NCBI GenBank assembly: GCA_036149055.1
Contig: JAYZQJ010000194.1
Span: 1 to 56,201, forward strand
DNA from: Myxococcota bacterium
GTDB lineage: Bacteria; Myxococcota_A; Polyangia; Polyangiales; Sandaracinaceae
Length of the DNA stretch: 56,201 bases
Direction: 5' to 3'
How positions within the stretch are numbered: position 1 is the stretch's first letter; the number at the start of each line of letters is the position of its first letter. The position numbers were made by a program. Positions 29,101 to 32,100 of this stretch are shown here, piece after piece.

Positions 29101-32100
29101 AGGTCGTCCGAGAAGGTCGCCTCGCCGTGCTGCACGACGCGGTCGACCATCGGCCCGATGGTGTCCCAGATCTCGGCCCAGATCTCGCGCCCCGGCCGCC
29201 CCATCGCCCACGGATGTTTGGCGCCGAGGATGGGCGCGTAGCTGTCGTTGTAGAGCTGGACCGCCTCCGGCCCCCAGAAGGTGAACATCGGGTAGCGCGA
29301 GTTGAGCAGGATGCTCACCGCGGTCCGCAGGCTCTGCGGCCACCCCTCCCGCGGCCCGAGCGGGGACTCGTCCCAGGCCATCGCCCGGAGCAACGCGCCC
29401 GCCTCACCGCCCCCCGCCAGGAAGTCCACGCTCACGACGTTCCCCCACGGGACATTCTAGCCTCGGCCGAGGCGCCGCGGACGGAATGAGGTGGACGGAA
29501 ATGAAAAAGCCGGCCCGAAGGCCGGCTTGGTTGCGGAAGAGAGGACTCGAACCTCCACGGATTTTACTCCACCAGATCCTTAGTCTGGCGCGTCTGCCAG
29601 TTCCGCCACTTCCGCGTGGGGCGAGCGAATCTAGCTGGCTGGCCGGGGATGTCAAGCGGTGGCGATGTCCTTTTTCGGGGGACGCGTGTACCACCAGGCC
29701 CAGAGCACGAAGAGGGCCTGGAACGGCAGCCTCAGGTAGAGGCCCCAGGCCGGCGCGTCGAACTGCTCCGGGTGCAGCGCCATGTGGACGTTGGCGGGGA
29801 AGACCGCGAACAGGAGCGCGATGAGGCCCCAGGCGGCGAAGGCGCGGGTGCGCGGCCAGAGCAGGAGCAGGCCGAGCGCGATCTCGGCGATCCCGGAGAT
29901 CCAGACCAGCTCCAGGTGGGCCGGGAGATAGGGCGGCATGATCGCCACGTAGAAGTCCGGGCTCACGAAGTGGTTCACGCCCGCGGCGACGTAGGCGAAG
30001 GCCATCACGTAGAGGAGCGCCGTCTTCAACACCGCACCTACGTGGCTCCACCGCGTTCGGATCGCAATCGGTGACGCGCCTGACAGCGGCGGCGGACAGG
30101 GCTGGCAGCGGGGCGGCCGCAGGCGCCGAAAAGCTCAACGATCTCGTGAAGCGACCGGTCTGGCACGGAGGTCGCTCAGGGGCTCGTCACTCGAAAGGGA
30201 GACGAGACATGAACGACAAGATCGGCAAGCTGGGCGGTGTGTGGGTGTGGCTCTTCGCGCTGAGCGCGGTGCTCCTCGGCATGGGGAGCGGGTACGTGAC
30301 CGCGGGCATGGGCGCGAAGATCTCGAGCGCGGTGTACTTCGGGATCTTCCTGGTGAGCGGCTTCGCGGCGATGGCGCTCACCAAGGCCAAGGCGCTGCTC
30401 GGCATCGCCGCCTTCCTGCTCGCGGCCCTGATCAGCGCCGCCGGCTACTTCTGGGTCGCGGCCCAGGCGATGACCGAGGCGACCAGCGCGCTCGGCGCGG
30501 CCGAGGTCGGGGGCACGCTCGGGGCGGCGATGGGCGCCTTCGTGGCCGTGATCACCTTCCTCGTGAGCGCGACCGGGGGCGTCACCGGCGCCGTCGCCGG
30601 CGTGCGCGCCCGCAAGCAGCTCGCGGCGGCGTGAGCGCGGACCCGCCCGCCCTCGGCCGGGCCGGGCGGGTCCGACCGGACGTGTCCCTCGCCGCCCGAT
30701 ATGCTCGGCGGCGATGGACTCCGTCGGCGACTACGTCCTGCTCGACCGGGTGGGCGAGGGCGGCATGGCCCAGGTGTGGCGGGCCCGGGCGCCGGGCGGC
30801 GACGAGGTCGCGATCAAGGTGCTCGGGCGGGGCGGCGAGGCGTCCGAGGCGGACCTGGGCCGCTTCGAGCGCGAGATCCGGATCGCGGAGTCGCTCTCGC
30901 ACCCCCACCTGATCTCGGTGCTCGACCACGGGGTCGACGAGGCGCGCGGGCCGTGGCTCGCGATGCCGCTGGTCCGCGGCATGACGCTGCGCGACCTGTT
31001 CGCGGGGCAGCGGCTGTCGCCCGAGGCGGCGCTGGTCCTGCTCGAGCCGCTCGCGGAGGCGCTCGGCGCGCTGCACGCCGAGGGGCTCGTGCACCGCGAC
31101 GTGAAGCCCGAGAACCTGATGCTGAGCCCGCTGGGCGACGTGACCCTGGTGGACCTCGGGCTGGCGATCGGCGAGGGCGACACGCGCCACACCCGCGAGG
31201 GCGAGGTGGCGGGATCGATCCCCTACATGTCGCCCGAGCGCATCGAGGGGCGCGACGTCGACGCCACCGCCGACGTCTGGTCGTTCGCGGTGATGCTCTA
31301 CGAGCTGGTCGCCGGCGAGCGGCCCTTCGCGCGGGAGCGGCCGGCGGAGGAGGTGGCCGCGATCCTCTCCGGCGCCTTCGAGCCGCTCTCGACGCGCGAC
31401 CGGCGGACCCCGCCCGAGCTCGACTTCTTCGTCGGCGCCGCGCTGTCGCCCGATCCGTGGAGCCGGCCGCGCGACGCGGCCGCGGTGCTGCAGCGCATCT
31501 CGCCGCTCATCCCGGGCGCGCGCGAGAGCCGCAAGGCCGACCGGGTCTCGGTGCTGAGCGATCGCCGGGGCTTCGAGGCGCGGGTGGCCCAGCGCGCGGC
31601 GGCGAAGCTCTGCGACGAGGCCGAGGCGATGCTCGCGCGCGGCGACGGCTTCGGGGCGCTGCGGGTGCTCGACCGGGCGCTGGCCCACGCGCCCGACGAC
31701 GCCCGGATCACCGCGCTCGTCGAGCGCGCCGGTGAGGGGCCGGTCGCGCCGCCGGTCGCGCCGCCGGTCGACTCGGAGCTGAGCGCCCCGCCGCCCCGTC
31801 CGCGCCGGGCCTGGATCGCGGCGGGCTTCGCGCTGCTGCTCGGCGGCGGCGCGGCGGGCTTCGCGCTGCTGAGCCAGTCGGCGGACGAGGCGCCGCTCGA
31901 GGCGGCGGTGGCGGCGGCGAGCCAGGCGTCCGAGGAGGAGGCGCCGGTCGACGCCGGCGCGGCGGAGGCGGCCGACGGGGGCGCGCCGCTCGCCTATCAC
32001 CGCATCCCCGACGCGCTGCTCACCAACGACGGCCCCGCCGATCCCGACGCGCTGCGGCCGGCCGAAGGAGAGCCGCTGGTCGAGGCGAGCGGGCTCGGCG

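What a model noticed while it worked through the whole genome (the two positions that open the first line are those of the whole stretch)
29532..29615. tRNA-Leu(AAG) replaces tRNA-Leu(GAG): an A34/inosine leucine decoder in a high-GC myxobacterial lineage
The only credible tRNA for CUU/CUC in this genome has anticodon AAG, although CUC is by far its most used Leu codon. The AAG gene is widespread in Polyangiales and one further family of the phylum and never stood beside a GAG gene in the genomes searched, so A34 (presumably edited to inosine) has replaced G34 for leucine. The gene is closest to the CAG isoacceptor, which points to an origin separate from the G34A change proposed for lactic acid bacteria.
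Evidence so far: ARAGORN + Rfam 53.6 bits; Leu tRNAs in rna.tsv are CAG x2, UAA, AAG. Codons in annotated genes: CTC 141,629, CTT 1,399, CTA 471. DNA search of 30 order genomes: 26 match, best locus AAG in 22 of 26; a 23rd genome shows it in call 203. Pattern for either anticodon in 41 phylum genomes: 27 match, 10 AAG, 17 GAG, none both. Five genomes 95-100% complete (two single-contig): AAG in 5 of 5, GAG pattern in 0 of 5. TadA in 27 of 30 order genomes and in the same-genus genome. Identity of AAG genes: 90% to each other, 83% to CAG, 70% to GAG and UAG.
(Added by a program. Inside this text positions count along the whole contig: contig position 1 is position 1 of the stretch shown here. 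"Call 12" and the like, gene names such as g00115 and contig names such as C1 are that model's own, and its searches are not shown. The text may have been shortened before it was handed on; [...] marks where a part breaks off. The agent that wrote the report below was given it as the finding of a first reader that could run no searches.)

Follow-up and report, generated by a model that had tools for sequence, protein, structure and literature searches.

The report
Leucine tRNA with rare AAG anticodon
A GC-rich myxobacterium reads its commonest leucine codon with a tRNA gene whose anticodon starts with A, probably edited to inosine, a trick mostly described in AT-rich lactic acid bacteria, and its family seems to have dropped a second leucine tRNA as well.

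Summary
The gene is real: a canonical tRNA-Leu(AAG) with promoter-like and terminator-like sites, identical and syntenic in a same-genus genome. It is the only gene in this assembly able to read CUC (62% of Leu codons). Housekeeping AAG and GAG genes excluded each other: order 98 AAG, 89 GAG, 14 undetermined of 201; phylum 63, 179, 9 of 251. AAG also turned up in Verrucomicrobiota, Planctomycetota and Acidimicrobiia records. tadA is most likely missing here through an assembly gap: its tRNA-Ser/Arg cluster is missing too. Best reading: TadA edits A34 to inosine (about 0.78; not shown, RNA contigs uninformative). New points: the family lacks the UAG gene (found in 1 of 31), so CUN is read by AAG plus CAG; the anticodon state has changed at least six times, once back to GAG at the same locus. 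Corrections: about half the order keeps GAG; divergent GAG-like genes lie in tRNA arrays of 5 of 5 complete family relatives; a CAG origin is not established. New variant of a known system.

The parts
29532..29615 (-). tRNA-Leu(AAG) gene, class II, discriminator A73, CCA end not encoded
   Evidence: (53.6 bits, model 1-71); identical in G029
29579..29581 (-). anticodon AAG; A34 is window position 29581
29577..29583 (-). anticodon loop C32-U33-A34-A35-G36-G37-A38; differs from the relatives' tRNA-Arg(ACG) loop only at position 35; fits the YUAMGRA motif reported for S. pyogenes TadA
29628..29655 (-). sigma-70-like promoter site (TTGACA, 16 nt, TAGATT)
   Evidence: 1 found, shuffle mean 0.0; both hexamers kept in G029; consensus match only
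29500..29528 (-). intrinsic-terminator-like hairpin with U tail
   Evidence: 1 found, shuffle mean 0.4; hairpin kept in G029

Best explanation
[quoted passage not shown] The IAG tRNA reads CUC and CUU in place of the lost housekeeping GAG tRNA and, in this family, also CUA in place of the lost UAG tRNA; CAG reads CUG. Shown: the gene, its conservation, the exclusion of housekeeping GAG, loss of the UAG pattern, TadA in relatives, the loop sequence. Inferred: transcription, leucylation, I34, TadA as the enzyme, and what it decodes.
For: Only CUY-reading gene in the assembly while CUC is 62% of Leu codons and CUU about 1%. Unmodified AAG favoured U over C by 87:13 in E. coli (PMC11066159 section 3.1), the reverse of the demand here. 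Exclusion: order 98 AAG / 89 GAG / 14 undetermined of 201; phylum 63 / 179 / 9 of 251; all 43 tRNAs of G006 typed, AAG present, no GAG of any kind. UAG pattern in 1 of 31 family genomes. TadA in 5 of 5 family genomes, 32 of 34 further AAG genomes, 5 of 5 named AAG genomes of other lineages; G029 TadA matches S. aureus TadA 2B3J at 1.8e-46. Loop co-change: A38 in 67 of 67 AAG against 0 of 73 GAG gene copies held, C32 in 61 of 67 against 0 of 73; G175 has made both changes on an otherwise GAG-type gene. Precedent: Leu-AAG fully edited in S. pyogenes and S. mutans.
Against: Inosine not observed: contigs of 4 RNA runs of another AAG genome of the phylum read A (uninformative rather than negative). 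No tadA in this assembly. E. coli TadA did not edit an AAG loop with G37, so a broadened enzyme must be assumed, and no TadA residue tracks AAG in all lineages. The 32/38 co-change is also predicted by decoding-strength tuning (PMC7293025 passages) and occurs in 4 of 11 UAG genes; 3 of 25 verrucomicrobial AAG genomes have G38. Array-borne GAG-like genes exist in 5 of 5 complete family relatives. O. oeni has A34 tRNAs that stay unmodified.
Confidence: 0.78

Rival explanations
1. The tRNA stays unmodified and reads CUC, CUU and CUA by four-way wobble of A34.
For: Unmodified four-box ANN tRNAs are expressed and tolerated in E. coli (bioRxiv 10.64898/2026.05.15.725136 passages); unmodified Pro-AGG reads CCU and CCC almost equally; O. 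oeni Thr and Ser A34 tRNAs are unmodified; RNA contigs show only A.
Against: For Leu, unmodified AAG discriminated 87:13 against C, and CUC outnumbers CUU about 50 to 1 here; no rise of CUU in AAG genomes; loops converge on the Arg-ACG loop; the Leu-AAG tRNAs tested in the papers I saw were edited.
Confidence: 0.13
2. CUC is read by a GAG tRNA from a tRNA array (or an unassembled GAG gene), and the AAG gene is an extra CUU reader.
For: GAG-like array genes in G029, G018, G038, G045, G092, one scoring 58.0 bits; this assembly misses many tRNAs (all four core Ser, Ile-GAU, Ala-UGC, Gly-UCC, Thr-GGU, Thr-UGU by Rfam).
Against: This genome's own array lies inside contig C148 and has no GAG gene; G006 has none among 43 typed tRNAs; array copies are unlike each other and atypical (C33 in three, short variable arm or altered D and T loops in others); such arrays are reported as generally silent and stress-induced (PMC8421152 abstract); housekeeping GAG pattern in 0 of 98 AAG order genomes.
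Confidence: 0.06
3. On origin: the AAG gene of this clade arose from a copy of the CAG gene, not from the GAG gene.
For: Acceptor and T stems: 0 differences from CAG in G029 and G018, mean 4.8 of 24 across genomes against 9.5 for GAG genes of families f14/f15 and 10.6 for UAG; its locus shares no neighbour genes with the GAG loci of f10, f14, f15 in the stretches held.
Against: The anticodon arm is closest to UAG (2.9 of 14 against 5.7 for CAG); genus g28 carries a canonical GAG arm on the same body at the same locus, so arms change at a fixed locus and similarity cannot fix ancestry; AAG and GAG genes share neighbours in f20/f21/f22/f23 and in f41/f54/f66 against f42/f45/f60; G175 differs from the f15 GAG gene at 7 positions.
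Confidence: 0.4
4. Sequencing or binning artefact.
For: The source is a 289-contig assembly.
Against: Identical gene in G029; AAG in 21 of 22 family genomes; compensatory stem variants across families.
Confidence: 0.01

Closest known systems
tRNA-Leu(IAG) of Lactobacillales (Streptococcus, Lactobacillaceae, Oenococcus); PMC13249217, bioRxiv 10.1101/2023.09.19.555891
   Same: A34 Leu gene excludes the housekeeping GAG gene family by family; TadA present; loop fits the S. pyogenes TadA motif YUAMGRA.
   Different: Host is 73% GC with CUC dominant, not AT-rich; the UAG gene is lost in this family but kept in Lactobacillales; no rise of CUU seen; several gains and one return to GAG inside one phylum; I34 not yet shown.
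Bacterial tRNA-Arg(ICG)/TadA system
   Same: Same enzyme family; loops differ only at position 35 in most relatives; a two-tRNA box (I34 plus C34) as in the E. coli Arg box (recalled).
   Different: Applied to the Leu CUN box; E. coli TadA did not accept the Leu-AAG substrate in the papers seen.
Cryptic long tRNA arrays (L-arrays); PMC8421152
   Same: The divergent GAG-like genes of relatives lie in clusters of atypical tRNA genes.
   Different: The AAG gene itself is a lone gene with its own promoter-like and terminator-like sites, not an array member.

Membership tests
I34 tRNA-Leu(IAG) system, Lactobacillales type | Canonical tRNA-Leu gene with A34 | tested here: met
I34 tRNA-Leu(IAG) system, Lactobacillales type | Housekeeping tRNA-Leu(GAG) absent | tested here: met
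   array-type GAG-like genes in five relatives are an exception to a strict reading
I34 tRNA-Leu(IAG) system, Lactobacillales type | tadA in the genome | tested here: inconclusive
   not in this assembly, where the surrounding Ser/Arg tRNA cluster is missing too; present in G029 and 36 of 38 other AAG genomes of the phylum
I34 tRNA-Leu(IAG) system, Lactobacillales type | Anticodon loop fits the broadened TadA motif YUAMGRA | tested here: met
   loop CUAAGGA; motif (derived there from mRNA editing sites)
I34 tRNA-Leu(IAG) system, Lactobacillales type | Inosine at 34 in vivo | tested here: inconclusive
   contigs of 4 RNA runs of G207 read A; contigs drop variants and were 10 kb pieces of a near whole-genome assembly
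I34 tRNA-Leu(IAG) system, Lactobacillales type | Own TadA deaminates the Leu tRNA in vitro | not testable with these tools
   needs an enzyme assay
I34 tRNA-Leu(IAG) system, Lactobacillales type | tRNA-Leu(UAG) retained (accompanying trait) | tested here: not met
   pattern in 1 of 31 family genomes; none among Rfam hits inspected in G029, G038, G092; kept in most other AAG families
I34 tRNA-Leu(IAG) system, Lactobacillales type | AT-rich host with raised CUU/CUC use (accompanying trait) | tested here: not met
   73% GC; no CUU rise against GAG genomes
Cryptic tRNA array gene | Member of a long cluster of atypical tRNA genes | tested here: not met
   only two tRNAs in the window, 16 kb apart

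The most novel reading that the evidence does not exclude
Leu G34/A34 is a recurrent, reversible switch in bacteria, not a peculiarity of AT-rich Bacilli: many lineages in at least four phyla have moved the housekeeping CUY decoder to an inosine tRNA by rewriting the anticodon arm as a unit into a TadA substrate, one genus has moved back, and this GC-rich family has gone furthest, decoding the whole CUN box with IAG plus CAG, so that editing of the second TadA substrate is essential for about 6% of all codons.
Probability: 0.5. Interest if true: 0.72.

Novelty: new variant of a known kind. Interest (0 to 1): 0.58.

Why it matters
A 2026 paper (PMC13249217) ends by asking whether Leu inosine decoding goes beyond Lactobacillales, and a 2026 preprint reports that all 15 genera with fixed A34 tRNAs are 60-70% AT and that A34 genes replaced only G34 genes. 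A 73% GC lineage with CUC as its main codon, loss of the U34 gene as well, several independent gains and a reversal gives natural replicates for asking why eukaryotes chose I34 and how TadA gains a substrate. Cultured carriers exist (Nannocystis pusilla, Luteolibacter, Rubritalea records), so the key test is one cDNA sequencing experiment. Broadened TadA orthologues may also interest base-editor work.

Tried and rejected
RNA evidence for inosine: 4 RNA runs of one study held the AAG locus of G207, but only as contigs of about 10 kb from a 6-7 Mb assembly; no other letter at position 34; neither support nor refutation. ARAGORN at a lowered threshold gave 55 GAG calls among 1,862, judged noise: none coincides with the 51 Rfam hits. 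Two Arg-GCG ARAGORN calls lacked Rfam support, so the idea that this genome had truly lost TadA and switched to Arg-GCG was dropped. An apparent group with neither AAG nor GAG (24 genomes) was a pattern miss: 22 of them re-tested with a relaxed D-loop had AAG (18) or GAG (4). Three 'both' cases were dropped as false pattern hits: G179 AAG (no tRNA by ARAGORN), G007 and G089 GAG (no tRNA by ARAGORN or Rfam); 45 GAG matches were not listed and so not inspected. Codon shift with AAG: none in paired rpoB contrasts; small samples hint at lower CUC and relatively higher CUA in AAG genomes but are confounded by kinship. TadA signature: Ile/Val two residues after the C-terminal Phe-Phe in 24 of 35 AAG against 0 of 30 GAG sequences, also in G175 and G031, but not in G263, G006 or five named AAG genomes: a hint only. 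Thermodynamic folding did not give the cloverleaf (z -2.0) and was not used. SorX and SorY Rfam hits are below gathering and fall on the terminator. Synteny of G175 and of f11 could not be tested (contig ends).

Full report
Observation. ARAGORN calls a tRNA-Leu with anticodon AAG at 29532-29615 on the minus strand and Rfam RF00005 matches it over the full model at 53.6 bits. The loop reads C32-U33-A34-A35-G36-G37-A38, with A34 at window position 29581. A sigma-70-like site lies 13 bases upstream and a terminator-like hairpin 4 bases downstream; both are kept in the same-genus genome G029, whose gene is identical and syntenic. The flanking reading frames, a weak DoxX/MauE-like one and a hybrid histidine kinase, are not part of it.

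This assembly. It has 9.9 Mb, 289 contigs and 73% GC. Its 51 Rfam tRNA hits include Leu AAG, CAG, CAA, UAA and a short array-type CAG, and no GAG or UAG; a separate cloverleaf scan agrees. In 4,869 ORFs picked by composition, CUC is 62.4% of Leu codons, CUG 34.3%, CUU 1.2%, CUA 0.4%. Absence in this assembly alone is weak, because the Rfam set also lacks all four core Ser tRNAs, Ile-GAU, Ala-UGC, Gly-UCC and two Thr tRNAs. That same gap explains the missing tadA: in G029 tadA lies between Ser-GCU and Arg-ACG on one side and Ser-CGA and Ser-GGA on the other, and the reading frames of that 20 kb found only paralogue-level matches (30-62% identity) or none here.

Distribution. In 201 order genomes at least 90% complete, a strict pattern found AAG in 81 and GAG in 85. 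One AAG hit was false (G179). A relaxed pattern on 56 chosen genomes resolved 22 of the 36 blanks as 18 AAG and 4 GAG. Total: 98 AAG, 89 GAG, 14 undetermined, none with both housekeeping types. GAG marks families f10, f11, f14, f15 and genus g28 of f2. In 251 phylum genomes AAG matched 63 and GAG 181; the two with both were false GAG hits, leaving 63, 179 and 9; 45 GAG matches were not listed and not inspected. Outside the order AAG occurs in eight families (f20 1 of 1, f21 2 of 6, f23 2 of 2, f27 18 of 18, f41 4 of 4, f54 2 of 2, f42 2 of 14, f66 1 of 1). Five named genomes from it had AAG, no GAG match, and TadA. In 131 genomes of the phylum of one Luteolibacter record, 25 had AAG, 71 GAG, none both, 35 no match. 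Kin are not independent and patterns miss diverged genes. One unpublished genome (G096) is a row in the order and family tallies; no claim depends on it. The window's gene resembles records titled Sandaracinaceae, so family f1 is probably that family (inference).

Exceptions. All five 100%-complete family relatives inspected carry a divergent GAG-like gene in a tRNA array: G029 49.5 bits, G038 and G092 39.6 bits, G045 58.0 bits, G018 ARAGORN only. Three have C33, and the copies are unlike each other. This genome's array has no such gene, and G006 has none among its 43 typed tRNAs. Long arrays are described as generally silent and stress-induced (PMC8421152, abstract and passages). So the replacement concerns the housekeeping set.

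Loss of UAG. The UAG pattern matched 1 of 31 family genomes (that one is a real tRNA on a 6.5 kb contig), whereas most other AAG families keep it. CUA must then be read by the AAG tRNA, since C34 cannot pair with A (established wobble rules). PMC13249217 states that Lactobacillales keep UAG (section read), and the 2026 preprint that A34 genes replaced only G34 genes and occur in AT-rich genera (section read).

History. A quick RpoB tree of 30 genomes needs at least 6 changes of state on well-supported branches; g28 (GAG) is nested among AAG genomes of f2, and G175 (AAG) among GAG genomes of f15 (the careful search did not finish, two rows were half filled, and two long branches meet at the root). 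The g28 GAG gene has the AAG body and the same neighbour genes, best read as a reversal. AAG and GAG genes also share neighbours in f20-f23 and in f41/f54/f66 against f42/f45/f60. G175 differs from an f15 GAG gene at 7 positions, three of them 32, 34 and 38. For the window's own clade the stems are CAG-like (4.8 of 24 differences, against 9.5 for f14/f15 GAG, 10.6 for UAG, 2.0 for g28 GAG) and the arm UAG-like (2.9 of 14) (11 AAG, 14 CAG and 9 UAG genes), and its locus was not shared with f10, f14 or f15 GAG loci.

Mechanism. TadA was found in 5 of 5 family genomes, 32 of 34 further AAG genomes and 31 of 32 GAG genomes. Among gene copies held, A38 occurs in 67 of 67 AAG and 0 of 73 GAG genes and C32 in 61 of 67 and 0 of 73 (pattern-selected GTDB loci and known false hits left out). 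The resulting loop differs from the commonest neighbouring Arg-ACG loop only at position 35 and fits the YUAMGRA motif of S. pyogenes TadA, which edits Leu-AAG fully while E. coli TadA does not (bioRxiv 10.1101/2023.09.19.555891, passages). Unmodified AAG preferred U over C 87:13 (PMC11066159, abstract and sections 3.1, 4.1), opposite to the codon demand here. Against this: the 32/38 change is also expected from decoding-strength tuning (PMC7293025, passages); some A34 tRNAs stay unmodified (PMC8072771, passages; preprint passages); 3 of 25 verrucomicrobial AAG genomes have G38. The direct test failed to inform: contigs of four RNA runs of G207 read A. A TadA residue tracks AAG in part (24 of 35 against 0 of 30). 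No CUU rise was seen in AAG genomes, unlike Lactobacillales. I put I34 by TadA at about 0.78.

Prior art. Leu-IAG is known from Oenococcus and Streptococcus. Text searches of PMC13249217, the two preprints and PMC8007984 found no myxobacterial or deltaproteobacterial AAG mention; PMC6063277 has no 'AAG' in its main text; PMC13249217 names only Mycoplasma and Prochlorococcus beyond Bacilli. Library searches (listings only) gave no paper on Leu-AAG in Myxococcota, Verrucomicrobiota or Planctomycetota. Rafels-Ybern 2018 and 2019 were not held and I saw nothing of them; the supplement of PMC13249217 and preprint supplements could not be read, and database-wide figures there may already list some of these taxa (Akkermansia is a likely one). 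Verdict: a real feature, a new variant of a known system, with inosine still to be shown; interest 0.58.

Noticed in passing
G000:C148:23470-28562 (L394); G029:C91 (L019); G045:C263 (L460); G018:C15 (L461); G038 and G092 (L265, L270): Long arrays of atypical tRNA genes in six family genomes, some with short-arm Leu tRNAs; the G029 array holds a YrlA Y-RNA-like gene (70.6 bits). They resemble stress-induced L-arrays.
   Followed up: partly
G059, G020, G075, G080 (L227-L230): Genus g28 carries a canonical GAG anticodon arm on the AAG-type body at the AAG locus: a probable reversal, with the whole arm changed, which suggests arm exchange by recombination.
   Followed up: yes
G273, G363 (L311, L312) and record L187: AAG genes with an acceptor stem unlike other Leu genes of the phylum and without the neighbours of their GAG relatives; possibly acquired horizontally.
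   Followed up: no
G175:C373:3613-3639 (L217, L240): Lone AAG gene in a GAG family: GAG-type body and stem, loop changed at 32, 34 and 38; its TadA has Val where the seven f15 relatives aligned have Leu or Arg.
   Followed up: partly
G033:C17:149062-149247 (L049): A partial copy of the AAG gene 159 bases before the full gene, as left by an integrating element.
   Followed up: no
G000 contigs C30, C42, C94, C128, C150, C192: Six near-identical 91-base stretches that ARAGORN calls tRNA with no clear anticodon and Rfam does not support; a dispersed repeat.
   Followed up: no
L012:10950-11130 against G000: A repeat of about 170 bases right after tRNA-Ser(GGA) in G029 matches more than 35 places in this genome, many at contig ends; it may cause the assembly gaps.
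   Followed up: no
window 13557-13630 (-): tRNA-Gly(CCC), the only other tRNA gene in the window.
   Followed up: no
L082-L201: The same AAG anticodon arm in records of Akkermansia, Luteolibacter, Rubritalea, Pirellulaceae, Ca. Poriferisodalis and Micavibrio; the Poriferisodalis genome showed only AAG and CAG by pattern.
   Followed up: partly
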